The notes beneath the pieces were generated by a model. The model saw nothing but the letters and a program-made list of their open reading frames with translations, did not search any database and was not told where the DNA came from. The position numbers were made by a program, and so were the translations under genes. Below are positions 18,597 to 50,438 of a stretch of 64,000 nucleotides of DNA, one piece after another. The stretch is from positions 6,679-70,678 of the forward strand of contig JBGPFC010000005.1 in NCBI GenBank assembly GCA_041483195.1. The letters run 5' to 3'. Each line of letters starts with the position of its first letter. The stretch's first letter is position 1. The DNA is from Candidatus Eiseniibacteriota bacterium. Lineage in GTDB: Bacteria; Eisenbacteria; RBG-16-71-46.

Positions 18597-21500
18597 CTAG
18601 CGCAGCACGCTCACGCGCTTCACCGTGCTGAGTCCGGGCGCGCGAACGCGGTAGAAGTAGATCCCGCTCGGCGCGCGGCGGCCCTGGTCGTCTTTCCCAT
18701 CCCACACCAGCGGATGCCGGCCGACGCCGAACTCCTGGTCCACCGGCACCCGCACCTTCTGCCCGAGGATATTGAACACCTCGAACGTCACGCGGCCGGG
18801 CGACGCCAGCGACAGCACGTTGCGCGGATCCAGAGCGGTCCGGCCGATGGCGTCCGCCACGCTCGGCGCGCTCGGCGCCGGGGTCGGGGTCGAACTCATC
18901 GTCGCCGGCTCCCCGGTGCCCGCCTTCGGGGTCGAGGCCGTCGTCACCGGCAGCGCGCCATCGTACAGATCCTCGATCATGAAGTCGGTGCCGTCGAGCT
19001 CGTAGTGGAGCCCGATCGGGTCCTCGCCGTTCGTCGCGTCCGTCAACGTCTTCAGCGAACCCGCGGAGTAGGTGAGCGCGAGATCCGCGAGGCCGTCTCC
19101 CGTGACATCCGTCTTCTGCACGTGAACCGGAAGCGCGAAGCCGAACTCGTTTCCAATCATCGTCCGGCCTGGAACGATCCGGGTCGCGTCGAAGAGCCCA
19201 TTCGACGGAATCGCGAGCTGTAGATCCTGCGACGCCGCGGCCAATTCGAAGTCGTTCGCGACCAGCAGCGCCGCATTGCCCGACTGACTGTGGGGCACGC
19301 GGACGTACGCCGTGTCATAGGCGGTGTTGCCGGAGAAGTCGCGGCCGCAATAGATGATGGTGTACTTGCGACCGCTCCCGGGGCCCGAGCGCTCGGACCG
19401 CAGCAGGAACGCGAGATCCGCCGTGCCGTACGCCGCGCCCTGGATGTCGTACTGGGTGTCGCCGTCGCCGAGGCCGTTGTCCGGCTCGTTGCTGGTGATG
19501 GACAGCAGGGTGAACGTCGGGTTCGGGTCGCAGATGTCGGTCACCGTGACCGTGGCGTGAATCTCGACGAGCTTATGGTTCGGCGGCCACAGCGCGTCGC
19601 GGTCGATGGCGACCGTGATGACCGGCGGCGTGGTGTCGACCACCTTCACATGGCGCGTGCACTGCGAGCTGTTGAGCGCGTTGTCGGTCGCGGTGAAGGT
19701 CACGGCGGTGGTGCCGTCCGGGTAGCAGGTGGGCGCGTCGTCGGTGACGACCGGCGTCGCGGTGCAGTTGTCGGTCGCGGTCGCGATGAATCCCGCGAGC
19801 TGCGGATCGCTCGCCGGGGTGCCGCAATGCGAGCTGCACTCCACGGTGATGTCGGCCGGGCAGGCGAGCACCGGCGGCGTGTTGTCGAAAACGCTCGCCT
19901 GGGAGAAGTCGCTCGCCGAGACGTTGCAGTTGTCCTTCGCCCCGAACGTCACCCTCACCGTGACCGGCCCGCCGACCAGATTCGAAACCAGCACGCTGCC
20001 CGTCACCGTCACGGTCTGCCCATCGTTCTGCACCTTGCCGATCGCCGGCACGCCGAGGGTCGCGCCGCCGCCCGGGAGCGTGACGCCCACCGTGACGTCC
20101 CCGGCCAGGATCGAGCAGTCGTCGGTGATGGTGCCGCCGAACGTCACGCTTCGCTGGCAGCTGGCGTCCACCGCTCCGCCGGTCACGTTGACGGCGACCG
20201 ACGGGGCGTTCGCGCTCACGCTGAAGTTTCCGTTCGAGACGTCGAAGAAGATGTTGCCAACCGCTTCGACCATGATGCGGCCCTGCGACGTCGCGCCGCA
20301 CGGGAGCGTCACCGCTTCCGAACCGTCGTTCGCGGTGTTGGCGGCGAGCGTGCTGAAGGTCGCACCGCCGTTCGACGAGTAGCGGATGTTGACGTTCGCG
20401 GCGACGCTGCCGCCGCCGACCGTCCACGTCACCGTCACCGGGCAGCCGGAATTGAGCGTCTCGCCGCCGTTGGGATAGGTGACGGCGAACGGGGCTCCGC
20501 TGACGTGCACCACCATCGCGTCGTAGTTCACGCCACCGCCGCCCGCGCGATTGTCGCGGGCCGTGCAGCGGAAGTTCATGTCGCGATCCACGGTCGGCAG
20601 GTGCTCCCACGGATCCGCGACCCCGCTCAGGACGGTGCTCATCTTGGGAAGGGTACGGGTCGGGCTGGTGGTCGGGACCGGCGAGCGGAACAGCGGCCCG
20701 TCCGCGTTGTTGGCCGGCGGAGACTGGGTGCCCAGATCGAACTGCTCCCAGCCGAACGTGAGCGGGTCGGAATCGGGATCGCTGCCGGTCGCGGTGAGGC
20801 GAAACGGGGTGTTGCGCGGAATGGTGAAGTCCGATCCCGCGTTCACGTTGGGGGGCGAGTTGCCGGTCGCGGTCGATGGTCCGCAGGTGCCGCCGCCCTC
20901 GCGGAACGCGACGATCTGATCGAAGCTCCGGGTGTGGAAGAAGGGATCGCTGTGCGGCTGGACGTCCTCGGCGCCGCAGATCCCGGCGTAGGCCATGATC
21001 GTGGTGCCGCTGCCCGGCTCGTAGGCCGAGCTCGCGACGCGGTTGCCGCCGCCGCAGCTGCTGGTCGAGCCGTTGAACGTATGATCCGCGTGGAACTGAT
21101 GGCCCATCTCGTGGGCGACGTAGTCCACGTCGAAGTCGTCGCCCTGCGGCGTGCCGCGCGAAGTGCCACCCTTCGCCTTGTTCGCGGCGCACACGCCGAA
21201 CTGCGCGAGACCGCCGCCGCCGCCGGAGCTGACGATGTGCCCGATGTCGTAGTTGGCCGAGCCGACATTCGTGTCGGTATCGGTCTGGTTCTCGTTGAGC
21301 AGCGTGCCGTTCACGCTGGTTCCGGCGGGAAACGGATCGGTCGCGGGATTGGTGTAGATGTTGAACGCGACGAGGCTGAGCCGGATCGACAGCTCCTTCT
21401 CGTAGATGCCATTGACGCGGTTCACGGTGGTGGTGATGGCCGCCTGTGCAGCGGCGACGGTGCCGCCGAAGAATTGCGTGTATTCGCCGGTCGCGGTCAT

Positions 21501-22184
21501 CGCGAGGCGATAGGTGCGCAGGTTGCCGCCGGAGGGCGTGGCGATCCGGTTCGGCAGGGAGATGTCAGTGTTCACCTCGCTGGCGTTGCAGATGAAGTCA
21601 CCGGGCTGCCGCTCCAGATCGCTCTTCCAGAAGCTCATGTACTGCCGCGTGTCGCCGCGCAGGTACGGGTCGACGTACACCGTTCCCTTCGGCGTGAGAA
21701 TCATGGCGTGAAATCCCGCGGGCGTGCGATCCATCCGCGCGGTGGCGGTGCGGTCCTCGATTCCCTCACCGAGGTAGGTCTGCAACTCGGGGTGCTGCGC
21801 CGCGAGCGCCGGGGCGAGGAGCGGAGAGTTCACGATCCGGAAGTGGCTGTAGCCGCCGTCCGGCATCGGGATGCTGATCACGAGCCTCGAGCCTCGGGCG
21901 CCCGATGCGATTTCGCGCGGGGCCGCGGCGAGCATCTGGCCGAGACGGTCGGCGTCGAGCTCGTACATCTTGAAAGCCACCGGACGATTGGTGACCTGAA
22001 TCAGCGAGTTCGATTGGAACTGAGGCTGTTCGATCTCGGACCACAATCCGTCTTCCGAAGGATTGCCGGTGAGATCGGACCGCTGCACGGCGAAAGAGGA
22101 GACGACGCACAGCGACAGCACACCGAGCGCGAATGCGAGCGAGATCGACGCGCGACGCACGGACCGCCAGGAATGGCGCATCAT
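18597..22184 (-). CDS. secreted reprolysin-like zinc metalloprotease (HExxH...H) with HYR-like Ig domains and a T9SS-type C-terminal sorting domain
   Basis: Signal peptide MMRHSWRSVRRASISLAFALGVLSLCVVSSFA. Protease motifs GGGGGLAQFGVC ... HEMGHQFHADH ... IMAYAG. Repeated HYR-like segments (TPPVLACPADITVECS, TTPPVITV). The C-terminus ...SGIYFYRVRAPGLSTVKRVSVLR resembles Por_Secre_tail/FlgD-Ig-like CTDs. Confidence 0.8.
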   Translation of the reverse strand: MMRHSWRSVRRASISLAFALGVLSLCVVSSFAVQRSDLTGNPSEDGLWSEIEQPQFQSNSLIQVTNRPVAFKMYELDADRLGQMLAAAPREIASGARGSRLVISIPMPDGGYSHFRIVNSPLLAPALAAQHPELQTYLGEGIEDRTATARMDRTPAGFHAMILTPKGTVYVDPYLRGDTRQYMSFWKSDLERQPGDFICNASEVNTDISLPNRIATPSGGNLRTYRLAMTATGEYTQFFGGTVAAAQAAITTTVNRVNGIYEKELSIRLSLVAFNIYTNPATDPFPAGTSVNGTLLNENQTDTDTNVGSANYDIGHIVSSGGGGGLAQFGVCAANKAKGGTSRGTPQGDDFDVDYVAHEMGHQFHADHTFNGSTSSCGGGNRVASSAYEPGSGTTIMAYAGICGAEDVQPHSDPFFHTRSFDQIVAFREGGGTCGPSTATGNSPPNVNAGSDFTIPRNTPFRLTATGSDPDSDPLTFGWEQFDLGTQSPPANNADGPLFRSPVPTTSPTRTLPKMSTVLSGVADPWEHLPTVDRDMNFRCTARDNRAGGGGVNYDAMVVHVSGAPFAVTYPNGGETLNSGCPVTVTWTVGGGSVAANVNIRYSSNGGATFSTLAANTANDGSEAVTLPCGATSQGRIMVEAVGNIFFDVSNGNFSVSANAPSVAVNVTGGAVDASCQRSVTFGGTITDDCSILAGDVTVGVTLPGGGATLGVPAIGKVQNDGQTVTVTGSVLVSNLVGGPVTVRVTFGAKDNCNVSASDFSQASVFDNTPPVLACPADITVECSSHCGTPASDPQLAGFIATATDNCTATPVVTDDAPTCYPDGTTAVTFTATDNALNSSQCTRHVKVVDTTPPVITVAIDRDALWPPNHKLVEIHATVTVTDICDPNPTFTLLSITSNEPDNGLGDGDTQYDIQGAAYGTADLAFLLRSERSGPGSGRKYTIIYCGRDFSGNTAYDTAYVRVPHSQSGNAALLVANDFELAAASQDLQLAIPSNGLFDATRIVPGRTMIGNEFGFALPVHVQKTDVTGDGLADLALTYSAGSLKTLTDATNGEDPIGLHYELDGTDFMIEDLYDGALPVTTASTPKAGTGEPATMSSTPTPAPSAPSVADAIGRTALDPRNVLSLASPGRVTFEVFNILGQKVRVPVDQEFGVGRHPLVWDGKDDQGRRAPSGIYFYRVRAPGLSTVKRVSVLR

Positions 22185-22512
22185 GGGGGGAACTCCTCTG
22201 CGAGGGTGGGGGGCTGAAATGCGATCGACGGGGGGAAGCCGGGCGCCGCGCTAGCGGGATGTGGATGGCGGCATTTGGGAGCCTCCGGGCTGGCCACTGG
22301 GACCCCACGCGCAAGTCGAAGGCCTGCGGCGTCGAAAAGCTAGCCGCAATGACGATGCCGGGCAAGAAATAAGGATGTCCCGCGGGGGATGCGTCGCGCG
22401 CGGATCGAACCTGGGGCTCGATCGTGTCGCCGAGCGTGCGAACCCAGGGTGACCGCGCGGTCCACGCTCCAACCGCGATGCAGCGCTCCACGAGTTGCCG
22501 CTAAACAATATC

Positions 22513-22541
22513 TTGACAGGTGAGCAACATGAGCGGAGAAT
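22513..22541 (+). promoter_or_regulatory. candidate sigma70-type promoter (TTGACA-N17-GAGAAT) upstream of the kinase / regulator / exosortase-like operon
   Basis: -35 TTGACA at 22513-18, a 17-nt spacer, and -10 GAGAAT at 22536-41. Confidence 0.3.
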
Positions 22542-22674
22542 TCTCGGGCGCTCACAACGGCCGGAGGCGCGATTCACCGCGCCTCGTGTGGGGGTGAAAG
22601 CGCGTCCCTGATCTCCAGATCGCCGCGAATCCATTCCCACCTCCGGCCCTCGTCGCGCATTCGTCTCGCGAGCG

Positions 22675-24387
22675 GTGCCCTTCGTCACCGCTTCATTGAG
22701 CAAGACTGTGAGCCCAATGACGATCGACCCCTCGACTGGGTTGGGCATGGTGGCGGAGGCGACCCCTCCTCCGCGAACTGGGCGCAAGCATGCGCCAGCG
22801 ACCAGCTCTCCGCTCGCCTCGGGCGACGCTCACCGAGCTGATCGCTACGATCCCGGGCTCTCCAATCTGGTGCTTGGCCTGCGCCTGCTCGCGCTCGCGG
22901 TGGTCGCGGGTTCGGGAACGCTGCTCCCGATCGGCGCGGCGTCGCGCCCGGGCCTGATCGCCGGGATTCTCGCCGGGGCCGCGGTGGGTGCGCTCCAGTA
23001 CCTCGCCGCCCGCGCCGGGCGCCGGGGGTTCGGAGAGGCGCTCGTTCCGGTTCAGGTCGCGAGCTGGACGTGGCTGGTCCACGTCTCCGGCGATCAGCAC
23101 TCACCGCTGTTCGTCGGCTATCTCCTCGAGGTCGCGCTCGCCGGGGCGGCTTACTCGCGGCGAGGCTGCTCGATCGCGGCGCTCGGCGGATTCGCCGCAT
23201 ACCTCATGGTGGGGCTGCGCATCAATCCCCCGCTGGTCGCCAGCACGCTGGCCACCGTTGGCGGATTCCTCGCGGTGGGGACCGTGCTCACCTGGCTGCT
23301 GATCGGGGCCATCGAGGGGCAGCGGCGGCGGCTCGCGCTCTACCATTCGGCGCTGCGTGCTCGCGCCGACACGGTGGGCGAGGAGCTGCGTCTGCTCGGA
23401 GACTACATGAGCGGGGCGCTCGTCAGCCTCGACGACCTGGGTCGCGTCGTGAGCGTCAATCCCGCGGCCGCCCAGCTGCTCGGCATCGAGGCGCAGCCCG
23501 CGCTGGGAAGGCCATGGCAGGAGATCGTCCGCGCGGACTCGGAGGGGGTGCGCGCGATCGTCGCGACCCTGAGCGAGGGCCGGGCGCAGCGCGGACTCAC
23601 CATGACCCTGCGGCGCGCCGACGGACGCGAGATCGGAGTCGGCGCGGAATTGTGGGTGAGTCCCTCGCCCGAGGGGCGGCGTACCTACCTGCTCGCTCGC
23701 GAGAGCACCGGCGCGCCCGCCGAGAGCGACCCGCTGCGGCGCCTCGGCGAGGCCGTGGCCTGCGTCGCGCACCAGATCAAGAATTCGCTCCACGCGATGC
23801 AGGGGTTCGCGGGGGAGATCGCGCGCGACCCGGAGGGGTCGGCCGATCGGTCGAGCGCCGAGCACCTGCTGTGCGTTGTGAAGAGCCTGAGCGCGCTCTC
23901 CGACGACGTGCTGGCGATGGCCGGCGCCTCGCGTCCGCTCACCGAGACCGTGCAGCTCTCCGAATTGCTCGAGTCGGCGACCATGCTCACCCGGCTCGCG
24001 CCGGGGCGCGTCGTGACGCAGACCTGCAACGGAGACCTGCGGGTGCGCGCGCATCGCGGCCAGCTGGTGCACGCGCTGTACAATCTCATCGACAATGCGT
24101 GCCGCGTGTCCCCGGCCGGTGAGCCGGTCCACATCGGCGCGCGTCGCGAAGGCGATCGCGTCGCGATCGAGATCGCCGACCGGGGACCGGGCATCCCGAG
24201 CGCGATCGCGGACGGCGCGGGACCGGCGCTCTCGAAGGCCGGCTCGGGATTCGGACTGCTGGCGGTGCGCCGATTCGTCGAGGCCAACGGCGGGACGCTC
24301 CGCTTCGAGCCGCGGCCCGGCGGTGGCACGCTGTGCCGTGTCGCGTTCCGCGCGGAGCCGGACCTCGCGCCGCAACCAGACGCCTGA
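22675..24387 (+). CDS. membrane sensor histidine kinase (multi-TM sensor, PAS, HisKA, HATPase_c); PrsK-like by context
   Basis: Several N-terminal TM helices, a PAS-like region (LVSLDDLGRVVSVNPAAAQLLG), an H-box VAHQIKNSLHAM, and G-boxes DRGPGIP and GSGFGL. The start may be the GTG at 22675 or the ATG at 22717. Confidence 0.85.
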   Translation: MPFVTASLSKTVSPMTIDPSTGLGMVAEATPPPRTGRKHAPATSSPLASGDAHRADRYDPGLSNLVLGLRLLALAVVAGSGTLLPIGAASRPGLIAGILAGAAVGALQYLAARAGRRGFGEALVPVQVASWTWLVHVSGDQHSPLFVGYLLEVALAGAAYSRRGCSIAALGGFAAYLMVGLRINPPLVASTLATVGGFLAVGTVLTWLLIGAIEGQRRRLALYHSALRARADTVGEELRLLGDYMSGALVSLDDLGRVVSVNPAAAQLLGIEAQPALGRPWQEIVRADSEGVRAIVATLSEGRAQRGLTMTLRRADGREIGVGAELWVSPSPEGRRTYLLARESTGAPAESDPLRRLGEAVACVAHQIKNSLHAMQGFAGEIARDPEGSADRSSAEHLLCVVKSLSALSDDVLAMAGASRPLTETVQLSELLESATMLTRLAPGRVVTQTCNGDLRVRAHRGQLVHALYNLIDNACRVSPAGEPVHIGARREGDRVAIEIADRGPGIPSAIADGAGPALSKAGSGFGLLAVRRFVEANGGTLRFEPRPGGGTLCRVAFRAEPDLAPQPDA

Positions 24388-24390
24388 GCC

Positions 24391-25707
24391 ATGCGCATTC
24401 TCATCGTGGACGACGACCCGCACGCGATCGAGGCGATGGCCGCGGTGCTGACCCCTGCGTATGAGGTCGAATGCCGCGACGGGGGCGGGGCTGGCATCGA
24501 TGCGCTGCGATCGCAACCGTTCGACCTGGTGCTCACCGATCTCGGCATGCCGTCTCCCGACGGATTCGATCTGCTCCGCGCCGCTCGCGAGCTGCCGGGG
24601 GCGCCGCCGGTGGTCGTGATCACCGGGCTCGACGACGCGCGCACCGCGGTCGAGGCGATGCGGCTCGGCGCCGCCGATCTACTGGTGAAGCCCGCTTCGC
24701 GCGAGGAGATCTGCGAGATCGTGAGCCGGGTCGAGGCGGAACGGCTCGGACTCGATGACGAGATCGAGGCGGCGGCCGGCCTGATCGGCCGCTCCCGTGG
24801 GCTGCGGCGCGTGCGCCGGCTCGTGCCGCTGCTCTCGCGCAGCCGCGAGACGGTGCTCATCACCGGTGAAACCGGGACCGGCAAGGAGCTGCTGGCCAGA
24901 GCGCTCCACGAGCTGGGGCCGCTCAAGGCGCGGCCATTCGTCGCGCACAACATGGCGGCGACTCCGAGCGAGCTGGCCGAGAGCGTGTTCTTCGGGCACG
25001 TGCGGGGGTCGTTCAGTGGCGCGACCAGCGATCACGCCGGGTTGTTCGAGAAGGCGGAAGGCGGCACCCTGTTCCTCGACGAGGCCGACAGCTTCCCGCT
25101 TCCGCTCCAGGCCAAGCTGCTGCGCGTGCTGGAAGGAGGACGGGTGCAGCGGGTAGGATCCTGCGCCGAACGTGGGATCGACGTGCGCGTCATCGCGGCG
25201 AGCGCGGTCGACCTGGGTCAGCTGGTGGCGGCGGGCCGGTTCCGCGCCGACCTCTACTACCGGCTGCGCCAACTGGAGGTGTCGATGCCTGCGCTGCGCG
25301 AACACATGGAAGACGTTCCCGCGCTCGCGAGACATTTCCTCGCCGAGCTCGGCCCCGACGCGGGCCCCGCGCCGCGAATCGCCGCGGCGACCCTCGACGT
25401 GCTGATGCGGTATCCATGGCCGGGAAATTGCCGCGAGCTGCGCAACGCGCTGCGGAGCGCGGCGGTGCTCGCCGGAACGGCGACGATCCAGCCCGGCCAT
25501 CTGCCGCGCGCGGTGATGCGCGCCGCCTCGGAGGGCGCCGCGGTGGATGCGCCCTCGACGCTGGTCGCGGTCGAGCGCGAACACATCCGGCAGGCGCTCG
25601 AGCACGTCGGAGGAAATCGCAGCCGCGCCGCGCGGCTGCTCGGCATCGATCGCGGCACGCTCGCGCGCAAGATCCGGAGCCTCGGCCTGGACCCGCCCGC
25701 GCGATGA
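24391..25707 (+). CDS. sigma-54-dependent Fis-family response regulator (NtrC-like; PrsR-like by context)
   Basis: Receiver domain (MRILIVDDD...DLVLTDLGMP), AAA+ sigma-54 activator domain (VLITGETGTGKELLARALH, GAFTGA-like, ESELFGH-like), and a C-terminal Fis HTH (NRSRAARLLGIDRGTLARKIRSLGL). Confidence 0.9.
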   Translation: MRILIVDDDPHAIEAMAAVLTPAYEVECRDGGGAGIDALRSQPFDLVLTDLGMPSPDGFDLLRAARELPGAPPVVVITGLDDARTAVEAMRLGAADLLVKPASREEICEIVSRVEAERLGLDDEIEAAAGLIGRSRGLRRVRRLVPLLSRSRETVLITGETGTGKELLARALHELGPLKARPFVAHNMAATPSELAESVFFGHVRGSFSGATSDHAGLFEKAEGGTLFLDEADSFPLPLQAKLLRVLEGGRVQRVGSCAERGIDVRVIAASAVDLGQLVAAGRFRADLYYRLRQLEVSMPALREHMEDVPALARHFLAELGPDAGPAPRIAAATLDVLMRYPWPGNCRELRNALRSAAVLAGTATIQPGHLPRAVMRAASEGAAVDAPSTLVAVEREHIRQALEHVGGNRSRAARLLGIDRGTLARKIRSLGLDPPAR

Positions 25708-26273
25708 GCCGACCCGGGCCCAGGGCGCAGACCCCACCGCATTCCCACTCCCCGCCGAAGCCACGGTCCGCGCCCCGGTCCGCCAGCAGCCGCGCGGTCG
25801 CCTTCTTTCTCGCCCGCTTCGTCGGCGGGTGGCTCGCGGTGCTGGTGCTGTTCGCGTTCGCGCCGGGGATCGAGCGCTGGATGGTGCGGCACACCATCGG
25901 CAGCCTGCTGTTCGTCACCCATCTGTTCCGAATGCACAGCCAGTCCTCCGGCACCGACCTCAGCATGGGCGGCGTCTCGCTCCAGATCGTTCCCGACTGC
26001 ACGCCGCTGATGCCGACGGCCGCCCTGTGGATCGCGATCGTCGCGTTCCCCGCCCCGTGGAGAGCGAGGCTGACCGGGCTCGGCGCCGGGGCGCTGCTGC
26101 TGTGGGCGTACAACCTGTTGCGCATCCTCGCCCTGATCCCGGTGCTCGCGCACCGGCCGGAGCTGTTCGAGTTCATTCACGTGTACCTGTGGCAGACCAT
26201 GACGCTGCTCGTGGTGTTCGCGATCTTCCTGCTCTGGTTGCGCTTTCAGGAGCCGAAATTGAGCGCGGCATGA
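25704..26273 (+). CDS. small polytopic membrane protein with exosortase/archaeosortase-family signature (about 189 aa)
   Basis: Its ATG overlaps the regulator's stop as ATGA (25704-25707). There are five predicted TM helices. A conserved Cys sits at the start of a TM helix (SLQIVPDCTPLMPTAALW), like the h-x-EACSG motif of exosortases, and a downstream AYNLLRILAL matches the exosortase N-x-x-R motif. The ORF track joined this gene to unrelated upstream sequence. Confidence 0.55.
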   Translation: MSRPGPRAQTPPHSHSPPKPRSAPRSASSRAVAFFLARFVGGWLAVLVLFAFAPGIERWMVRHTIGSLLFVTHLFRMHSQSSGTDLSMGGVSLQIVPDCTPLMPTAALWIAIVAFPAPWRARLTGLGAGALLLWAYNLLRILALIPVLAHRPELFEFIHVYLWQTMTLLVVFAIFLLWLRFQEPKLSAA

Positions 26274-26752
26274 AGTGGCTGGGGCGGTTCATCCTGTGGT
26301 CCACGCTGCTGGCCATCCCGTGCTGGCTGATCTCACACGGATACCAGCGCGCGCTGGCGCGCGCGGCATCGCTGGTGTTCGCCGCCTGCGGACAGACCGT
26401 CGCGATCGACGACATCGAGGTGATGGCGCCGTTCGATCTGGGCATCTTCGCGGCGATGTGCCTCGCGAGCCTGACGGCGCCGTGGCTCGCGCGACGCCGC
26501 GCGCTGTTGGTGGGGGTCCCGATCCTCGTCGCGCTCGAGGTGCTCACCGTGGTGCTCGGGATCGCGGTCTACATGGTCTGGCCACAGAACTCGAAGCAGC
26601 TCGAGGCCAGCCTCCGGCTCACCGGCTACCTGATCGAGAGCATTCCCTGGGTGAGCGCCACGGTGGTCTGGCTGCTGCTGCTCGGCGCGTGGGAGCTGCC
26701 GCTCGCGCCGCAGCCGCCGCGCGCGCGGCCCGCGCGCGGCGTGCGCGCCTAG
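26270..26752 (+). CDS. polytopic membrane protein (about 160 aa, 4 TM) translationally coupled to the exosortase-like gene; possibly the second half of a split exosortase
   Basis: ATGA overlap at 26270-26273. MKWLGRFILWSTLLAIPCWLISHGYQRALARAASLVF... is all hydrophobic helices. Confidence 0.5.
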   Translation: MKWLGRFILWSTLLAIPCWLISHGYQRALARAASLVFAACGQTVAIDDIEVMAPFDLGIFAAMCLASLTAPWLARRRALLVGVPILVALEVLTVVLGIAVYMVWPQNSKQLEASLRLTGYLIESIPWVSATVVWLLLLGAWELPLAPQPPRARPARGVRA

Positions 26753-26872: not shown

Positions 26873-27325
26873 ATGCGCAAGCCAACGCAAGCCGATGCCG
26901 AGCTGCTGCTCCACCTCTACGAAATGCGTCGCGACCCCGAGCTGCGCCGCGGGCGCCAGTGGTTCCTGAGCGAGTTCGAGCCCGGCGACTGGAGCGAGAT
27001 CAAGCCCCGTTACCTGAAGTTCAGCGATGAAGACCGCTGGTTCCGCATGACGGTATCGTACTGGGAGATGGTGGGTGCGATCGTCAACCGCGGACTGCTG
27101 GACGCCGAGCTGTTCTTCGATCACACCGGCGAGGCGGTGGTGACCTGGGAACGCTGCAAGCCATGGATCGCCGGGGCGCGAGCGGCGATTCGGCCGACGT
27201 ACCTCCTTCAATTCGAGCGCATGGTCGCCGCCCAGCTCGCGTACCGGGCGAAGCAGCTCGCCGCGTTCAAAGCTTCCGCGGCGCGCGCGGCCGCGCCGCG
27301 CGGCGGCGCGAAGCGCAAGCGCTGA
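26873..27325 (+). CDS. hypothetical protein (150 aa, Trp-rich, basic C-terminal tail), co-transcribed with aroC
   Basis: GGAGAAG ribosome-binding site. Its stop lies 2 nt before the aroC ATG. No recognised domain. Confidence 0.5.
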   Translation: MRKPTQADAELLLHLYEMRRDPELRRGRQWFLSEFEPGDWSEIKPRYLKFSDEDRWFRMTVSYWEMVGAIVNRGLLDAELFFDHTGEAVVTWERCKPWIAGARAAIRPTYLLQFERMVAAQLAYRAKQLAAFKASAARAAAPRGGAKRKR

Positions 27326-27326
27326 C

Positions 27327-28388
27327 ATGTCCTCGTCATTCGGCACGCTGTTCGTCGTCACCACCTTCGGCGAATCCCACGGGCCGGCGGTCGGCGTGGT
27401 GGTGGACGGCATGCCGCCCGGCATCCGCGTCGAGAGCGCGGAGGTTCAGCGCGAGCTCGATCGGCGCCGGCCCGGGCAGAGCGCGCTCACCACGCAGCGC
27501 AAGGAGAGCGACACGGTCGAGATCCTCTCCGGGATCTTCGAGGGCCTGAGCATGGGCACGCCGATCGCCATGCTGGTGCGCAATACCGACGCGCGCTCGA
27601 AGGACTACGAAGCGCTCAGGGACGTCTTCCGCCCCGGCCACGCCGACTACGCGTACTTCGAGAAGTACGGGGTGCGCGACCACCGCGGCGGCGGCCGCGC
27701 CTCGGGACGCGAGACCGTCGGCCGGGTCGCGGCCGGCGCGCTCGCGCGCGCCGCGCTCGCGACGGTCGGAGTCCGGATCGTGGGCGGCACGGTGCAGGTG
27801 GGAGCGGTGCGCGCCGAGGCCCGGCACTGGGACGAGGTCGAGAAGAATCCGGTGCGCTGCCCCGACGCGACCGCGGCCGTGACGATGGCGCGGGTGATCG
27901 AGGAGGCCCGCGACGCGAAGGATTCGGTGGGGGGCGTGGTCGAGGTGAACGCGTTGGGCGTTCCGGCCGGGTGGGGCGATCCCACCATGGCGAAGCTCGA
28001 CGCGGCGATCGGCGCCGCGATGCTCTCGATCCCCGCGACCAAGGGGGTCGAGATCGGCGGCGGCTTCGGCATGTGCGAACGCCACGGCTCGGAGACCAAC
28101 GACGTGTTCGACGGCGAGCGCTTCCTCACCAACTTCGCGGGAGGCATCAACGGAGGGATCTCCAGCGGCGCCCCGATCGTCGCGCGCGTGGCGGTGCGCC
28201 CGGCGACCTCGATCGGGAAGCCCCAGACCGCGGCGATGCGCGGGGGCGGCACCACCACCATCGCGATCGAGGGTCGTCACGACCCCTGCATCTGCCCGCG
28301 CGTGGTGCCGGTCGCCGAGAGCATGCTGGCGCTGGTGCTCGCCGATGCGTGGCTGCGCCAGCGAGCGCTGCGCGGGAGGGAAGCCTGA
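27327..28388 (+). CDS. aroC: chorismate synthase
   Basis: GESHGPAVGVVVDGMPPG, RPGHADYAYFEKYG and GGGRASGRETVGRVAAGA are highly diagnostic of AroC. Confidence 0.92.
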   Translation: MSSSFGTLFVVTTFGESHGPAVGVVVDGMPPGIRVESAEVQRELDRRRPGQSALTTQRKESDTVEILSGIFEGLSMGTPIAMLVRNTDARSKDYEALRDVFRPGHADYAYFEKYGVRDHRGGGRASGRETVGRVAAGALARAALATVGVRIVGGTVQVGAVRAEARHWDEVEKNPVRCPDATAAVTMARVIEEARDAKDSVGGVVEVNALGVPAGWGDPTMAKLDAAIGAAMLSIPATKGVEIGGGFGMCERHGSETNDVFDGERFLTNFAGGINGGISSGAPIVARVAVRPATSIGKPQTAAMRGGGTTTIAIEGRHDPCICPRVVPVAESMLALVLADAWLRQRALRGREA

Positions 28389-28462
28389 ACGACCGCCGTC
28401 GATTGACCCGCCTCGAAAACGCGTGCTAGGCTCGATGCCTCGTTCGACGGAGGTTTGCGCGA

Positions 28463-28546
28463 ATGTTCGGCACCGGGAACTACGAGTGGATCTGGCGCGG
28501 GTACGGCTACGCGTGGCGTGGCCGGGAGACCGCGTCGCTCCGCTGA
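28463..28546 (+). CDS. candidate aromatic-amino-acid leader peptide (27 aa: MFGTGNYEWIWRGYGYAWRGRETASLR)
   Basis: GGAGG ribosome-binding site 9 nt upstream. The peptide has 3 Trp, 3 Tyr and 1 Phe. It sits 30 nt upstream of an intrinsic terminator and about 80 nt upstream of the DAHP synthase start. Confidence 0.5.
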   Translation: MFGTGNYEWIWRGYGYAWRGRETASLR

Positions 28547-28574
28547 TTTCCTCGAGCCTCGCGCGCACTCCCTG

Positions 28575-28606
28575 CCCATGCCTTCGCGGCGTGGGCGTTT
28601 TCATTG
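28575..28606 (+). terminator. intrinsic terminator / attenuator in the DAHP-synthase leader
   Basis: Stem GCCCATGCC-ttcgc-GGCGTGGGC (9 bp with one G-U pair) followed by GTTTTCATT. Leader segment 28517-28530 (GGCGTGGCCGGGAG) can alternatively pair with the 5' terminator arm as an antiterminator. Confidence 0.5.
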
Positions 28607-28626
28607 GCGGCTGACCGGAGTCCCAC

Positions 28627-29640
28627 ATGCTGGTGCTGCTCAAACGCGGCGTGAGTGAGCCCGCGATCAACGAGCTCACCTCCTGGCTGCGCATGGCCGG
28701 GCTGGGCGTGCATCGCGCCGACCACGACGGCCACGTGCGGCTCGCCGCGCTGAGCGATACCGGACTGCTCGACTGGGAGCAGGTGAGGAAGCTCCCGGGC
28801 GTCGAATCGGTGACGAAGATCGCCGTGCCCTTCAAGCTGGTGAGCCGCGCGTTTCATCCGCACGACACGGTGATCACGGTGGGCCGCTGCGCGATCGGCA
28901 GCCAGCAGCTCGCGCTGATGGCGGGGCCCTGCTCGGTCGAGGGCGAAGCCCAGGCCTTCACCATCGCCGAGGCGGTGGCGAAGGCCGGCGCGACCATCAT
29001 GCGCGGCGGAGCCTACAAGCCGCGCACCTCGCCATACTCGTTCCAGGGGCTGGGCGAGGAGGGCCTGAAGCTCCTGCGCCGCGCGGCGGACGCGAACGGC
29101 CTGGCGGTGGTGAGCGAGGTGATGGACTCGCAGCAGGTAGCGCTGGTCGCGCGCTACGCCGACATCCTGCAGGTCGGCGCGCGCAACATGCAGAACTTCT
29201 CGCTGCTGAAGGAGGTCGGGCAGGCGGGCAAGCCGGTACTCCTCAAGCGCGGCCTCGCCTCGACCATCGAGGAATGGCTGATGAGCGCCGAACACATCCT
29301 CTCGCAGGGCAACGCGCAGGTGATCCTCTGCGAGCGCGGCATCCGCACGTTCGAGACCTACACGCGGAACACGCTCGACCTCAACGCGATTCCGGTGGTG
29401 AAGGAGCTGAGCCACCTGCCGGTGATCGTCGACCCATCGCACGGCACCGGGATCCGCAACAAGGTGGCGCCGATGGCGCGCGCCGCGATCGCCGCCGGCG
29501 CCGACGGGCTCATCATCGAGGTGCATCACGACCCCGACCACGCGCTCTCGGACGGCGCGCAGTCGCTGTATCCCGCGCAGTACGTCGAGCTGGTGGAGCA
29601 GATCCGGACGATCGCGACGGTGCTGGGAAGAACGGTGTGA
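28627..29640 (+). CDS. aroF: 3-deoxy-7-phosphoheptulonate (DAHP) synthase, class I-beta with an N-terminal regulatory domain
   Basis: The N-terminal about 75 aa are ACT/FL-like. The catalytic domain carries LMAGPCSVE, GAYKPRTSPYSFQGLG, KRGL and IVDPSHGTG motifs of the KDO8PS/DAHPS I-beta family. Confidence 0.88.
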   Translation: MLVLLKRGVSEPAINELTSWLRMAGLGVHRADHDGHVRLAALSDTGLLDWEQVRKLPGVESVTKIAVPFKLVSRAFHPHDTVITVGRCAIGSQQLALMAGPCSVEGEAQAFTIAEAVAKAGATIMRGGAYKPRTSPYSFQGLGEEGLKLLRRAADANGLAVVSEVMDSQQVALVARYADILQVGARNMQNFSLLKEVGQAGKPVLLKRGLASTIEEWLMSAEHILSQGNAQVILCERGIRTFETYTRNTLDLNAIPVVKELSHLPVIVDPSHGTGIRNKVAPMARAAIAAGADGLIIEVHHDPDHALSDGAQSLYPAQYVELVEQIRTIATVLGRTV

Positions 29641-30344: not shown

Positions 30345-31088
30345 TCACCGCGCGCGATAGATCGCCTTGAGGCCGCCCCAGCTGGCGCGACTCGCGGCGG
30401 TGGCCGGGTCGGCCGCGACGCACAGCACGTGCGGATCGGGAGCGGCGAGCGCGACGAAGCTGGTGCCGAGCCCCTCGGTGGGAACCAGGTATTGCTGGCC
30501 GCCCGGAGCGAACGTGATGAGCGCGACCTCGAGCGCCTTCACGCACGCGCCCGGGGCGCCGCCGCGCTGAAAGCGGAGGCTGGCGGACACACTCGCGTGG
30601 GCGGGAAGCGCGTCGGTGTCCAGCCGCAGGACGTGCGCGGACATGCCGGCGTCGGTCACGATCGGGCCGAACGACGGCGGGAGGGCGAACGCGAGCGCCG
30701 GCGCGACCACGATCTGCCCAGACGCCGGAACCGAAGCCGCGCTCCAGGTCGCACTCGTGAGCGTCCAGCCGTCTGGCCATTCGGCGACGATGCACTCGCC
30801 GCATCGGGTCACGATCGTGTACACCCCGTGGTGCGTGAACCCGCACAGCACCAGACCGGTCGCGAGGCACTCCGAGCCAAAGTCCACGCAGCCCCGATCG
30901 GTCGCGATCGTGACCTGAGAGTCCACCACGATCTGTTCGACGACGAACGTGAATTGAGCCGTACACGTCCCGTCACCCGGGCACAGCTGCGAGAAGCCCG
31001 GCGGCAGGCAGCCGCCCAGGACCCATGGTGCGCAGAGCAGGGCGAGCGGAGCGAGATGGGCGAGCGAGGCGCGTCGCATGGCGATCAT
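30345..31088 (-). CDS. hypothetical Cys-rich lipoprotein
   Basis: Signal peptide with lipobox (LALLCAPWVLGGC). There are 14 Cys, mostly in the N-terminal half. No known domain. Confidence 0.5.
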   Translation of the reverse strand: MIAMRRASLAHLAPLALLCAPWVLGGCLPPGFSQLCPGDGTCTAQFTFVVEQIVVDSQVTIATDRGCVDFGSECLATGLVLCGFTHHGVYTIVTRCGECIVAEWPDGWTLTSATWSAASVPASGQIVVAPALAFALPPSFGPIVTDAGMSAHVLRLDTDALPAHASVSASLRFQRGGAPGACVKALEVALITFAPGGQQYLVPTEGLGTSFVALAAPDPHVLCVAADPATAASRASWGGLKAIYRAR

Positions 31089-31138
31089 GTTCTCACAGAC
31101 GCGGCCTCGCGCCGCCGAGCCGTGGCGCGGGCGCATTC

Positions 31139-31167
31139 TTGACATCGCATCGCGCCTCCGGCTTAAT
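31139..31167 (+). promoter_or_regulatory. candidate promoter for tRNA-Val/thrS (TTGACA-N17-CTTAAT)
   Basis: -35 at 31139-44 and -10-like CTTAAT at 31162-67, 13 nt before the tRNA 5' end. Confidence 0.3.
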
Positions 31168-31179
31168 CGTCCGCTCCGC

Positions 31180-31255
31180 GGGCGATTAGCTCAGTTGGTA
31201 GAGCACTTGCTCGACAAGCAAGGGGTCACTGGTTCAAGTCCAGTATCGCCCACCA
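31180..31255 (+). tRNA. tRNA-Val (anticodon GAC), CCA encoded
   Basis: GGGCGAT/ATCGCCC acceptor stem, GCTC...GAGC D-arm, anticodon stem CTTGC/GCAAG with loop TCGACAA, and a TTCAAGT T-loop. Position 33 reads C rather than the usual U. Confidence 0.8.
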
Positions 31256-31320
31256 TTGTTCACGCCGCGCGCCGGCCGCAGCCCGCGTCCCGCGGCCCGC
31301 TGAGGACTACCGCCGTGTCG

Positions 31321-33093
31321 ATGACCACCATCCCCGAGGATCGGCCCGAGGTCGCCCGCTATCCCGGGGGCGAGGCGCTCTACCGCCTGCGCCATTCGGC
31401 GGCGCACGTGCTCGCGACCGCGGTGGTCGAGCTGTTCCCCGACGTGAAGGTGGCGGGCGGGCCGCCCATCGAGAACGGGTTCTACTACGACTTCGCCCGC
31501 GAGCAGCCCTTCACCCCCGAGGACCTCGAGAAGATCGAGGCGCGCATGCGCGAGATCGTGGCCGCGAACCAGCGCTTCGAATACAGCGAGACCGACAAGG
31601 CGGAAGCGCGGGCTCGCTTCGAGGCGGCGGGGGAGAAGTACAAGCTCCACTTCCTGTCCGTGATTCCCGATGGCGCGAAGGTCACCTACTACAGGAACGG
31701 CCCGTTCCTCGACCTCTGCCGCGGCCCGCACCTGGCGGGCACCGGCGAGCTGAAGGCGTTCAAGCTCACCCACGTCGCGGGCGCCTACTGGCTGGGGCAG
31801 GAACGCAACGAGATGCTCCAGCGCATCTACGGCACCGCCTTCCCATCGCAGGCCGACCTCGACGAGCACCTGAAGCGCGTCGAGGAATCGCTCAAGCGCG
31901 ACCATCGCAAGCTGGGGCGCGAGCTCGACCTGTACTCGATCCACGAGGAAGTCGGCGGCGGCCTCATCTTCTGGCATCCGAAGCTGGGGATGGTGCGCCA
32001 TCTGATGGAGAAGCTGTGGAAGGACGAGCACCTCCGGCGCGGCTATCAGCTGGTCTACACCCCGCACATCGCGAACGAGAAGCTGTTCGAGATCTCCGGG
32101 CACCTCCAGAACTACGCGGACCTCATGTATTCCGCGATGGATATCGACGGCCAGCCGTATCGCATGAAGCCGATGAACTGCCCCGGACACATCATGATCT
32201 ACAACAGCCGCAAGCATTCCTATCGCGATCTGCCGCTGCGCTTCGCGGAGCTCGGCACCGTTTACCGCTACGAGCGCTCTGGCGTGCTCCATGGCATGGA
32301 ACGCGTGCGCGGCTTCACCCAGGACGACTCCCACATCTTCTGCACCCCGGATCAGCTGGCCGGCGAGGTCGAGGGCATCCTCGACCTGATGGACTACCTG
32401 CTGCGCACCTTCGGATACGAGTACAGCTGCTACCTCGCGACCCGGCCGAAGGAGAAGACCATCGGCAGCGACGAGGAGTGGGCGTTCGCGACCGACGCGC
32501 TGCGCAACGCGCTCGAGCATCGCGGCCTGCCCTACGAGGTCGACGAAGGCGGCGGCGCGTTCTACGCGCCCAAGATCGACGTCAAGCTGCGCGACGCGCT
32601 GGGCCGCGAGTGGCAGTGCCCGACCATCCAGGTGGATCTCACCCTGCCGAAGCGCTTCGGCGTCCATTACACCGGACCCGACGGACAGGACCACGAGGTC
32701 ATCATGCTGCACCGCGCGCTCTACGGCTCGCTCGAGCGCTTCGCCGGGATCTACATCGAGCACACCGGCGCAGAGTTTCCAGTGTGGATCGCGCCAGTGC
32801 AGGTGAAGGTCATCCCCGCGAACCCGAAGGCGCTCGACTACGCCGTCGACACGGCGCGGCTGTTGAGGGAAGGCGGCGTGCGCGCCGAGGTGGACCTGCG
32901 CGACGAGAAGATGGGCGCCAAGATCCGCGACGCCGAGCTCGAGAAGGTGCCATACATGCTGATCGTGGGACCGCGCGAGGCCGAGGCCGGCACCGTTTCG
33001 CCGCGCCGCAAGGGCGTGGGCCAGCTCGAGGCCGTCACCCGCCAGGCGTTCCTCGAGCGCGTGCAGCGGGAGTCGCGCGAGCGCAGCGGGTAG
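31321..33093 (+). CDS. thrS: threonine--tRNA ligase (N-terminally short form lacking the TGS domain)
   Basis: RHSAAHVLATAVVELFPDVKVAGGPPIENGFYYDF, class II motifs, and an anticodon-binding C-terminus. The ORF's upstream 81 codons run across the tRNA gene and are rejected. Confidence 0.9.
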   Translation: MTTIPEDRPEVARYPGGEALYRLRHSAAHVLATAVVELFPDVKVAGGPPIENGFYYDFAREQPFTPEDLEKIEARMREIVAANQRFEYSETDKAEARARFEAAGEKYKLHFLSVIPDGAKVTYYRNGPFLDLCRGPHLAGTGELKAFKLTHVAGAYWLGQERNEMLQRIYGTAFPSQADLDEHLKRVEESLKRDHRKLGRELDLYSIHEEVGGGLIFWHPKLGMVRHLMEKLWKDEHLRRGYQLVYTPHIANEKLFEISGHLQNYADLMYSAMDIDGQPYRMKPMNCPGHIMIYNSRKHSYRDLPLRFAELGTVYRYERSGVLHGMERVRGFTQDDSHIFCTPDQLAGEVEGILDLMDYLLRTFGYEYSCYLATRPKEKTIGSDEEWAFATDALRNALEHRGLPYEVDEGGGAFYAPKIDVKLRDALGREWQCPTIQVDLTLPKRFGVHYTGPDGQDHEVIMLHRALYGSLERFAGIYIEHTGAEFPVWIAPVQVKVIPANPKALDYAVDTARLLREGGVRAEVDLRDEKMGAKIRDAELEKVPYMLIVGPREAEAGTVSPRRKGVGQLEAVTRQAFLERVQRESRERSG

Positions 33094-50208: not shown

Positions 50209-50438
50209 CGATCACCTCGGCGATCGGCCCGGCCCTGACCACACCGCTAGCACGTCGCGCATGAAACGGGAAGCACCGAATGGAATGCATCGGGCATGCC
50301 TTGACGGTCTCCTGTCGCGGGAGGGACACCATGGTGCGGGCCGGTCGGAGCACCGGCGCCGCGACCGTTGGAGGAACCGTCCCGCCGCCAGTTGCCCAAA
50401 GCTCGCGAGATGCTTATCGTGTCGCCCCCAGCACGTCC

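What the first reader, a model, noticed from the sequence alone, without database searches (positions are those of the whole stretch)
22513..26752. Kinase, sigma-54 regulator and a (split?) exosortase-like membrane module, with no obvious sorting-signal substrate
A multi-TM PAS histidine kinase and an NtrC-family sigma-54 response regulator are followed by two small polytopic membrane proteins, and all four junctions are translationally coupled by ATGA overlaps. The first membrane protein carries what look like exosortase/archaeosortase hallmarks: a Cys at the start of a TM helix (SLQIVPDCTPLMP) and a downstream N-x-x-R motif (AYNLLRIL). The arrangement mirrors the PrsK/PrsR-XrtA (PEP-CTERM) system of Proteobacteria, but the transpeptidase here is unusually small (about 190 aa) and is followed by a separate 4-TM protein. 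No PEP-CTERM-like cargo gene is visible in the window. The neighbouring large metalloprotease instead uses a T9SS-type C-terminal domain. This could be a minimal or divergent protein-sorting system not yet described in this lineage.
Basis: partly seen in the sequence, partly recalled or inferred. Interest (0 to 1): 0.65.

Follow-up and report, generated by a model that had tools for sequence, protein, structure and literature searches.

The report
Small exosortase operon with sigma-54 regulator
This is a real but fairly ordinary protein-sorting operon from a Candidatus Eisenbacteria genome: a small exosortase of the XrtH type, its constant membrane partner, and a sensor kinase with a sigma-54 regulator; its substrates are not in this window but lie next to the same gene pair in related genomes.

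Summary
The four genes are real. They are a multi-TM PAS histidine kinase (22717-24387), an NtrC-type sigma-54 response regulator (24391-25707), a 189-aa exosortase-family protein (25704-26273) and a 160-aa four-helix membrane protein, here called P4 (26270-26752).

- **Exosortase:** it passes the exosortase/archaeosortase signature model. Its best subfamily hit is exosortase H (81 bits, cutoff 86). Cys99, Arg140 and His159 are invariant in 57 homologues. Its size is normal for this branch, so it is neither minimal nor split.
- **P4:** it is a separate, conserved partner, adjacent in 65 of 67 related loci. It is fused to the sortase in one case and divergently oriented in others. Family members weakly and repeatedly hit the NCBIfam 'exosortase H-associated membrane protein' model.
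- **Two-component system:** orthologues flank the pair in about a quarter of loci, in two gene orders. They are not PrsK/PrsR orthologues.
- **Cargo:** none lies in the 64-kb window. In at least 15 related loci, adjacent secreted proteins end in xP-x3-4-[P/T/W], a TM helix and an Arg-rich tail (e.g. VPMLPTWG, VPGQSP).
only two of the three junctions are ATGA overlaps, and 22513 is a sigma-70-like -35 box, not a start codon.

Verdict: a new member of a known kind, of modest interest.

The parts
22513..22541 (+). Sigma-70-like promoter match, TTGACA-17-GAGAAT.
   Evidence: 10 of 12 consensus matches; 1 site found against 0.2 expected in shuffles. This is a consensus match only.
22717..24387 (+). 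Sensor histidine kinase, 556 aa from the ATG (the ORF is open from the GTG at 22675). It has an N-terminal membrane domain of 4-6 TM segments with short loops, then PAS, a weak HisKA match and HATPase_c.
   Evidence: It is not PrsK: TIGR02916 scores 49.9 bits against a cutoff of 300, and only over the catalytic end. The orthologue in L007 is 48% identical over the full length, including the membrane domain.
24391..25707 (+). NtrC-family sigma-54-dependent response regulator, 438 aa: REC, AAA+ Sigma54_activat, AAA_lid_14 and a Fis-type HTH_8.
   Evidence: Best NCBIfam hit is NtrC at 356 bits (cutoff 558). PrsR scores 294 bits (cutoff 502.6), so it is below cutoff for every named equivalog. The start lies 3 nt after the kinase stop.
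25704..26273 (+). XrtH-like exosortase, 189 aa, with the catalytic candidates Cys99 (VPDCTPLMP), Arg140 (YNLLRIL) and His159 (FIHVYLWQT).
   Evidence: TIGR04178 signature 48.6 bits (cutoff 23); TIGR04177 XrtH 81.2 bits (cutoff 86). C99, R140 and H159 are invariant. AF2 model with pLDDT 84. Its start overlaps the regulator stop as ATGA.
26270..26752 (+). Sortase-associated four-helix membrane protein (P4), 160 aa. Its invariant residues include P54, D56, C64, R75, E90, R116, E123 and W127.
   Evidence: It is adjacent to the sortase in 65 of 67 related loci. It is fused to the sortase in P0207/L040. Ten of 84 family members hit NF041730 weakly. Its start overlaps the sortase stop as ATGA.
22345..22360 (-). 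Candidate sigma-54 -24/-12 element, CGGCATCGTCATTGCG, about 175 nt upstream of the divergent metalloprotease gene (18597-22184, - strand). It is uncertain and not shown to belong to the system.
   Evidence: There is no statistical enrichment in the window (32 matches against 54 expected), and the metalloprotease is not conserved next to the cassette in relatives.

Best explanation
**What it is.** The locus is an operon of a Candidatus Eisenbacteria bacterium. It encodes a C-terminal protein-sorting machine and its regulator.

**The sortase.** The 189-aa protein is an intramembrane cysteine transpeptidase or protease of the exosortase/archaeosortase family. It belongs to the XrtH/ArtB branch and uses Cys99, Arg140 and His159. 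Its substrates are Sec-exported proteins whose C-terminus has three parts: a short motif with an invariant Pro (xP-x3-4-[P/T/W], for example VPMLPTWG or VPGQSP), one TM helix, and an Arg/Lys cluster. The enzyme cuts at the motif and hands the mature protein to an acceptor on the cell surface.

**The partner.** The 160-aa protein is an obligate membrane partner of the sortase. It is probably the Eisenbacterial counterpart of the 'exosortase H-associated membrane protein'.

**The regulator.** The kinase senses an envelope or intramembrane cue and phosphorylates the sigma-54 activator. The activator then switches on sigma-54 promoters of cargo genes located elsewhere in this genome.

**Shown:** family membership, catalytic-residue conservation, partner co-occurrence and one fusion, recurrent linkage of the two-component system, and cargo-like genes next to the pair in relatives.

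**Inferred:** catalysis, the role of the partner, the kinase signal, and which promoters the regulator controls.
For: **Sortase identity**
- TIGR04178 signature is passed. XrtH is the best subfamily for this protein and for ten relatives.
- C99, R140 and H159 are invariant in 57 sequences. These are the same three residues proposed as the exosortase catalytic triad in bioRxiv 10.1101/2023.06.07.544157.
- The AF2 model (pLDDT 84) places Cys99 after a three-strand sheet, at the start of a short helix and ahead of two long TM helices.

**Partner**
- A P4 homologue is adjacent in every Eisenbacteria genome locus and in 65 of 67 non-redundant loci with enough sequence.
- It lies downstream in most loci, is divergent in L006 and L014, and is fused in frame to the sortase in P0207 on scaffold L040.
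- NF041730 is the family hit by most P4 members: 10 of 84, best E 0.0017.

**Cargo**
- Seventeen adjacent ORFs, many with N-terminal signal peptides, align on an invariant Pro, then about 18 hydrophobic residues, then an R/K cluster.
- NF033207 'midcut-by-XrtH' weakly matches the signal region of two of them.
- Archaeal relatives that score as XrtH/ArtB have VPVLMPAG-type cargo directly upstream.

**Regulation**
- Orthologous kinase (48% identity) and regulator (57% identity) occur as Xrt-P4-HK-RR in L007/L008. They occur as HK-RR-Xrt-P4 in the window, L009, L012 and 13 metagenome contigs.
- In L007/L008, three cargo genes flank the cassette.
- GG-N8-YTGC elements lie 70-80 nt upstream of four cargo genes. 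That spacing matches the one Haft et al. 2006 reported for PEP-CTERM genes (PMC1569441).
Against: - No cargo gene lies in the window, so substrate and signal for this particular genome are extrapolated from relatives that are 36-61% identical.
- The sortase scores just under the XrtH cutoff.
- The window's own P4 has no significant hit to NF041730.
- About three quarters of related loci lack an adjacent two-component system.
- Sigma-54 promoter evidence is weak. The motif is permissive in 70% GC DNA. Two of the four well-placed sites lie in 92%-identical duplicated upstream regions. The only such site near the cassette in the window faces a metalloprotease with a T9SS-like tail.
- No enzymology or solved structure exists for this branch.
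Confidence: 0.72

Rival explanations
1. P4 is not an accessory subunit but a substrate of the sortase. It would carry an internal recognition element, like the NCBIfam 'midcut-by-XrtH' proteins: the conserved xMAPFD motif, a short hydrophobic helix and an RRR cluster at residues 50-78.
For: P4 has a conserved P-x-D motif followed by a short helix (53-66) and the invariant or near-invariant R75 and R77. A family of XrtH-adjacent proteins with a mid-protein signal exists in NCBIfam as NF033207, a 175-position model whose signal region lies at about positions 32-64. That size and layout resemble P4.
Against: NF033207 hits the true C-terminal signals of Eisenbacteria cargo but no P4 member, whereas NF041730 (the associated membrane protein) is the recurrent weak hit. 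The hydrophobic stretch after P-x-D is only about 10-14 residues in many homologues, and the motif differs from the cargo motif. Fusion of P4 directly to the C-terminus of the sortase fits a subunit better than a substrate.
Confidence: 0.1
2. P4 is a catalytically dead paralogue of the sortase (a pseudo-sortase) that forms a heterodimer with it.
For: A profile-profile alignment of the P4 and sortase families covers 135 columns with the same helix order. It places P4's APFD on the sortase VPDCTP, and P4's APW..RRR on the sortase APWR (E 0.002 for the single comparison). The AF2 secondary-structure layouts are parallel: a long TM, a loop, a short helix, then two long TM helices. Single P4 members give weak hits to ArtA, XrtF, XrtX and XrtY models.
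Against: The hhalign probability is only 13%, and hydrophobic TM proteins often align spuriously. The single-member hits have E of 0.013 or worse.
Confidence: 0.12
3. The two-component system is a neighbour without a functional link to sorting. It might, for example, control the divergent metalloprotease or unrelated sigma-54 regulons.
For: 46 of 61 informative loci have no regulator upstream of the sortase. The best sigma-54-like site near the cassette faces the metalloprotease gene. The operon itself has a sigma-70-like promoter.
Against: Orthologous kinase-regulator pairs sit next to the sortase pair across sortase identities of 42-100%, and in two different gene orders. That pattern is hard to explain by inherited synteny alone. 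In the window the regulator stop overlaps the sortase start. The metalloprotease is not conserved beside the cassette in relatives.
Confidence: 0.15

Closest known systems
Exosortase H (XrtH, TIGR04177) with IPTLxxWG-CTERM cargo and the 'exosortase H-associated membrane protein' (NF041730)
   Same: It is the best-scoring subfamily, at 81.2 bits. It shares the small size (a 158-position model) and the Cys/Arg/His motifs. A small membrane protein is encoded next to the sortase. One Eisenbacteria cargo group ends in VPM[LVM]xTWG, which matches IPTLxxWG at P2, L4, W7 and G8.
   Different: The window protein and 9 of 10 tested relatives fall below the XrtH cutoff of 86. P4 is below the NF041730 cutoff of 35, with a best family member at about 16 bits. 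Most adjacent cargo carries a looser xPGxSP-type motif. A sigma-54 two-component system is attached in about a quarter of loci.
Archaeosortase B (ArtB, TIGR04144) with VPXXXP-CTERM cargo
   Same: The size and catalytic motifs match. The nearest non-Eisenbacteria relatives, from ANME-1/Methanophagales, score 99-116 bits to ArtB and 83-103 bits to XrtH, and have VPVLMPAG or VPVLTPIG cargo directly upstream. Many Eisenbacteria tails fit V/A-P-x-x-x-P.
   Different: The window protein scores only 42.7 bits to ArtB, against a cutoff of 150. The archaeal loci have no P4 homologue. The window protein is bacterial.
XrtA/PEP-CTERM system with PrsK/PrsR (Haft et al. 2006, PMC1569441)
   Same: The logic is the same: an exosortase, a transmembrane histidine kinase with an uncharacterised membrane sensor domain, and an NtrC-type sigma-54 activator. 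GG/GC -24/-12 elements lie about 70-80 nt upstream of some cargo genes.
   Different: The kinase and regulator fail the PrsK and PrsR models (49.9 against 300; 294 against 502.6). The sortase is of the XrtH type, not XrtA. There is no PEP motif, and no PrsT-like TPR lipoprotein or EPS gene cluster beside the cassette.
XrtF with its 'exosortase F system-associated' membrane protein, and XrtA with EpsI (both recalled from memory of TIGRFAMs/NCBIfam, not tested here)
   Same: In both, a sortase is paired with a dedicated small membrane partner encoded next to it. EpsI is sometimes fused to the sortase.
   Different: P4 gives no hit to those partner families in the NCBIfam or Pfam scans. The XrtF model scores only 28 bits on the sortase.

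Membership tests
Exosortase/archaeosortase family (TIGR04178 signature; PF09721) | Score at or above the signature model's cutoff | tested here: met
   TIGR04178 scores 48.6 bits against a cutoff of 23. Pfam PF09721 gives no hit for the window protein but is recorded for many homologues.
Exosortase/archaeosortase family | Conserved Cys, Arg and His (the proposed catalytic triad) within a polytopic membrane protein | tested here: met
   C99, R140 and H159 are invariant in 30 and in 57 homologues. TM helices are seen by hydropathy and in the AF2 model. The triad is as described in bioRxiv 10.1101/2023.06.07.544157.
Exosortase/archaeosortase family | Cognate proteins in the same genome with a tripartite C-terminal signal (motif, TM helix, basic cluster) | not testable with these tools
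   None lies in the 64-kb window, and the rest of this genome could not be read. In relatives, 17 such proteins are encoded next to the sortase pair.
Exosortase H (TIGR04177) | Score at or above the curated cutoff of 86 bits | tested here: not met
   81.2 bits. Relatives score 54-86 bits, and only P0106 reaches 86.2.
Exosortase H system | Adjacent 'exosortase H-associated membrane protein' (NF041730, cutoff 35 bits) | tested here: inconclusive
   The window's P4 gives no hit at E up to 10. Ten of 84 family members hit weakly, with best E 0.0017 and at most about 16 bits, making this the most frequently hit family.
Exosortase H system | IPTLxxWG-CTERM cargo | tested here: inconclusive
   VPMLPTWG, VPMVQTWG and VPMMQTWG tails lie next to the second type of Eisenbacteria locus (L014, L016, L025). 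Most other tails are xPGxSP-like. No known CTERM model hit was reported.
PrsK/PrsR (TIGR02916/TIGR02915) | Scores at or above the equivalog cutoffs | tested here: not met
   PrsK scores 49.9 against 300, over the catalytic end only. PrsR scores 294.4 against 502.6, and NtrC scores higher at 356.
Midcut-by-XrtH (NF033207), considered for P4 | Match to the model, with a sorting signal in mid-protein | tested here: not met
   No P4 member hits NF033207. The model weakly hits the C-terminal signals of the L014 and L016 cargo instead.
   The two ORFs are in different frames with an ATGA overlap. Each has its own homologue family. They are divergently oriented in L006 and L014. They are fused in only one of 128 representatives.

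The most novel reading that the evidence does not exclude
The sortase works only as a heterodimer with P4, which would be a catalytically dead paralogue of the exosortase fold that docks cargo or presents the acceptor. The kinase's loop-poor multi-TM domain would sense, within the membrane, the state of this complex or the cleaved TM remnants of cargo. That would close a feedback loop onto sigma-54-driven cargo genes.
Probability: 0.12. Interest if true: 0.55.

Novelty: new member of a known kind. Interest (0 to 1): 0.3.

Why it matters
- **Partner protein:** exosortase systems are widespread but almost uncharacterised biochemically, and the acceptor and any accessory subunits are unknown. A clade in which a small sortase always travels with one specific four-helix partner, occasionally fused to it, gives a compact two-protein target for reconstitution and structure work.
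- **Annotation:** the work also supplies an unnamed XrtH-like subfamily, a partner family now labelled 'hypothetical protein', and a C-terminal signal variant for annotating Candidatus Eisenbacteria, an uncultured soil phylum.
- **Regulation:** the recurrent sigma-54 two-component link suggests that regulated cargo expression, known for XrtA/PrsKR, arose independently in another sortase branch.

None of this overturns current understanding.

Tried and rejected
- **Split or truncated exosortase:** rejected. The sortase covers the XrtH model nearly end to end in relatives, and the sister subfamily models are 150-174 positions long.
- **One mispredicted gene:** rejected.
- **PrsK/PrsR orthology:** rejected on scores.
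- **Cargo in the window:** three heuristic scans and one HMM scan found none. The best tail (50265-50900) is just a membrane protein's last helix.
- **Metalloprotease as exosortase cargo:** rejected. It has a T9SS/FlgD_ig-like tail, no TM-plus-basic end, and is not conserved beside the cassette.
- **Sigma-54 promoter search with TGGCAC-N5-TTGC:** fewer matches than in shuffles, so uninformative in 70% GC DNA. The two nicely placed L008 sites lie in 92%-identical duplicated upstream regions.
- **Solved structures:** none found by sequence or by fold. The afdb50 fold library was unavailable.
- **Retrieving named XrtH-associated proteins:** a profile search with 84 P4 sequences returned only the same unnamed family. 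A tblastn search against plasmids found nothing.
- **Literature:** no paper combines 'exosortase' with 'Eisenbacteria', and XrtH is barely mentioned anywhere. Haft et al. 2012 (PMC3256604) is not held.
Full report
**What is in the sequence**

The window is about 70% GC. Four co-directional genes lie on the + strand.

| Gene | Coordinates | Size | Domains |
|---|---|---|---|
| Histidine kinase | 22717-24387 (ORF open from GTG 22675) | 556 aa | 4-6 TM segments, PAS, weak HisKA, HATPase_c |
| Response regulator | 24391-25707 | 438 aa | REC, Sigma54_activat, AAA_lid_14, HTH_8 |
| Exosortase-like membrane protein | 25704-26273 | 189 aa | see below |
| Membrane protein P4 | 26270-26752 | 160 aa | four helices |

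These rest.

Identical proteins occur on contigs of a public MAG (GCA_041490895.1) and in JGI and Logan assemblies. NCBI-named relatives are from Candidatus Eisenbacteria.

- There are three junctions, and only two are ATGA overlaps. The kinase/regulator junction is TGAgccATG.
- Position 22513 lies upstream of an in-frame stop at 22609. It is the -35 hexamer of a sigma-70-like promoter match, TTGACA-17-GAGAAT.
- A size of 189 aa is normal for this sortase branch.

**The sortase**

NCBIfam places the 189-aa protein in the exosortase/archaeosortase family: TIGR04178 scores 48.6 bits against a cutoff of 23. Exosortase H is the best subfamily, at 81.2 bits against a cutoff of 86. XrtX, ArtB, XrtM and others follow.

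Ten relatives all have XrtH as best hit, at 54-86 bits.

In alignments of 30 and of 57 homologues, Cys99 (VPDCTPLMP), Arg140 (YNLLRI) and His159 (FIHVYLWQT) are invariant. These are the residues proposed as the exosortase catalytic triad (bioRxiv 10.1101/2023.06.07.544157).

An AF2 model (pLDDT 84) shows this order of elements:
1. two N-terminal helices;
2. a three-strand sheet;
3. Cys99 at the start of a short helix;
4. two long TM helices carrying Arg140 and His159.

No solved structure is related by sequence or by fold.

**The second membrane protein (P4)**

P4 has 35 close homologues. Many sit on contigs of the same length as contigs holding sortase homologues.

A genome-collection scan gave 31 loci.
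- Nineteen were bacterial: 15 titled Candidatus Eisenbacteria, two titled only 'uncultured bacterium', and two labelled Saccharimonadaceae. I take the last two for mis-binned Eisenbacteria, but did not test this.
- Eleven were archaeal (ANME-1/Methanophagales and relatives).
- One was a Desulfobacteria contig.

tblastn shows a P4 homologue beside the sortase in each of those 19 bacterial loci, and in none of the 12 others.

With 80 further metagenome loci, P4 is adjacent in 65 of 67 non-redundant bacterial loci that have at least 400 nt downstream.

P4 is usually immediately downstream. It is divergent upstream in L006 and L014.

In one representative the two are a single ORF. P0207 (328 aa) has an XrtH-like domain at residues 31-145, and the P4 domain runs from about 174 to 324. 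It sits on scaffold L040.

So P4 is neither part of a mispredicted transporter gene nor a fragment of the sortase. It is a dedicated partner.

The AF2 model (pLDDT 81.5) gives helices at 2-39, 53-66 (short), 72-103 and 110-142. Invariant polar residues (D56, E90, R116, E123) sit in or near the membrane helices.

P4 itself matches no NCBIfam or Pfam family. Across 84 family members, however, the model hit most often is NF041730, 'exosortase H-associated membrane protein'. Ten members hit it, with best E 0.0017, all below the 35-bit cutoff.

The pairing of a small XrtH with an adjacent membrane protein is therefore already catalogued. The Eisenbacteria pair looks like a divergent version of it.

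A profile-profile comparison of P4 against the sortase family gives a full-length alignment with the same helix order, but only 13% probability. I keep the 'pseudo-sortase' idea as a low-probability lead.

**Substrates**

The window has no ORF ending in a motif, a TM helix and a basic tail. Relatives do, right next to the pair.

| Locus | Position of the cargo gene | C-terminal signal |
|---|---|---|
| L007/L008 | 178-aa gene directly upstream of the sortase | MPMIGGPW-TM-TRCRR |
| L007/L008 | two paralogues convergent with the regulator | AVPGASP-TM-RLRSR and APAASPW-TM-RLRSR |
| L014, L016, L025 | adjacent | VPM[LVM]xTWG-TM-basic |
| L004 | CHRD-domain protein, adjacent | TVPASERTG-TM-RLRSTR |
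| L040 | directly upstream of the fused gene | SIPVAPLP-TM-ERRRRR |

Further examples lie in L020, L022, L061, L062, L064, L067, L077, L080 and L097. Many of these proteins have clear N-terminal signal peptides.

Aligned, the 17 tails share three features:
- an invariant Pro, followed 3-4 residues later by P, T or W;
- about 18 hydrophobic residues;
- an Arg/Lys cluster.

The VPMLPTWG group matches IPTLxxWG at four positions. NF033207 'midcut-by-XrtH' weakly matches that region.

The archaeal relatives score as XrtH (83-103 bits) and ArtB (99-116 bits). They have VPVLMPAG or VPVLTPIG cargo directly upstream.

The system is therefore a bona fide sorting system of the XrtH/ArtB type. In this genome the cargo must be encoded outside the window. 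That step is inferred, not shown.

**The two-component system**

The kinase and regulator fail the PrsK and PrsR equivalog models. The resemblance to the XrtA/PrsKR system (Haft et al. 2006, PMC1569441) is one of logic, not orthology.

The linkage is nonetheless recurrent.
- A sigma-54 regulator orthologue lies directly upstream of the sortase in 15 of 61 informative loci, at sortase identities of 42-80%, plus the window itself.
- In L007/L008 the same orthologues (kinase 48% and regulator 57% identical over full length) lie downstream, in the order Xrt-P4-HK-RR. Three cargo genes flank that cassette.

Two gene orders across such divergence argue for functional coupling.

Promoter evidence is only suggestive.
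- GG-N8-YTGC elements occur upstream of 7 of 13 cargo genes, against 0.26 per 300 nt of background. Four lie at -70 to -80.
- Two of those four are in duplicated, 92%-identical regions.
- The consensus is under-represented rather than enriched in the window.
- The one well-formed site near the cassette (22345-22360, - strand) faces the divergent metalloprotease. That gene has a T9SS-like tail and is not conserved beside the cassette.

**Verdict**

The cassette is an exosortase-type sorting module with a kinase and a sigma-54 regulator.

The 'minimal', 'split' and 'no substrate' aspects dissolve on comparison with relatives and current NCBIfam models.

What remains new is modest:
- an unnamed XrtH-like subfamily restricted to Candidatus Eisenbacteria;
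- its near-universal partner family, now annotated as hypothetical;
- a loose xP-x3-4-[PTW] signal variant;
- a non-PrsKR sigma-54 two-component system attached in a subset of loci.

No paper in the searched library links exosortases and Eisenbacteria.

I rate it a new member of a known kind, with interest about 0.3.

Noticed in passing
window 30345-31145 (-); L006 7099-8055 (-) and 11665-12543 (-): Three Eisenbacteria proteins end in the motif [ST]WGx[LV]Kxx[YF]R at the very C-terminus (SWGGLKAIYRAR*, SWGELKERFR*, TWGAVKTIYR*). The window protein has a lipoprotein-like N-terminus. The two L006 proteins flank the sortase gene. There is no TM helix, so this is not an exosortase-type signal, and its function is unknown.
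   Followed up: partly
L014 9264-12501; L016 10001-13013; L025 10001-12968: A second type of sortase-P4 locus exists in Eisenbacteria. It adds a HupE_UreJ_2 (PF13795) membrane protein, which is fused to P4 in P0234 (552 aa) and apparently in L016. It also adds a ~195-aa secreted protein whose mature N-terminus begins (A/G)HHLW and whose tail is VPM[LVM]xTWG-TM-basic. This may be a metal-related surface protein.
   Followed up: partly
window 26873-29640 (+): A DUF4760 protein, chorismate synthase and DAHP synthase follow the sortase pair in the window and in most orthologous loci (L004, L005, L009, L010, L012, L018-L020, L023, L026, L027). This looks like conserved synteny with housekeeping genes rather than part of the system. 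DUF4760 starts 120 nt after P4, and no terminator-like site was found.
   Followed up: partly
window 18597-22184 (-): This is a 1195-aa reprolysin-family zinc metalloprotease (HEMGHQFHADH) with a C-terminal FlgD_ig / T9SS type A-like domain just under cutoff (20.9 against 23 bits). Two GG-N8-YTGC elements lie 140 and 175 nt upstream of its start. It is not conserved next to the cassette in relatives.
   Followed up: partly
L028-L039 (ANME-1/Methanophagales, Syntrophoarchaeum, one Desulfobacteria contig): The closest non-Eisenbacteria relatives of the sortase are archaeal small sortases that straddle the XrtH and ArtB models. Large DUF11/CARDB-type surface proteins ending in VPVLMPAG-TM-basic are encoded directly upstream, and there is no P4 homologue. 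The link across domains may deserve a phylogeny.
   Followed up: partly
window 31180-31252 (+): A tRNA gene (Rfam RF00005, 70.8 bits) lies just upstream of the threonyl-tRNA synthetase-like ORF and overlaps the mechanical ORF call 31078-33093.
   Followed up: no
L013 and L025 (contigs of MAG DATJGS, titled Candidatus Saccharimonadaceae): Two sortase-P4 loci typical of Eisenbacteria come from a MAG labelled Saccharimonadaceae. I suspect a mis-binned or mislabelled assembly.
   Followed up: no
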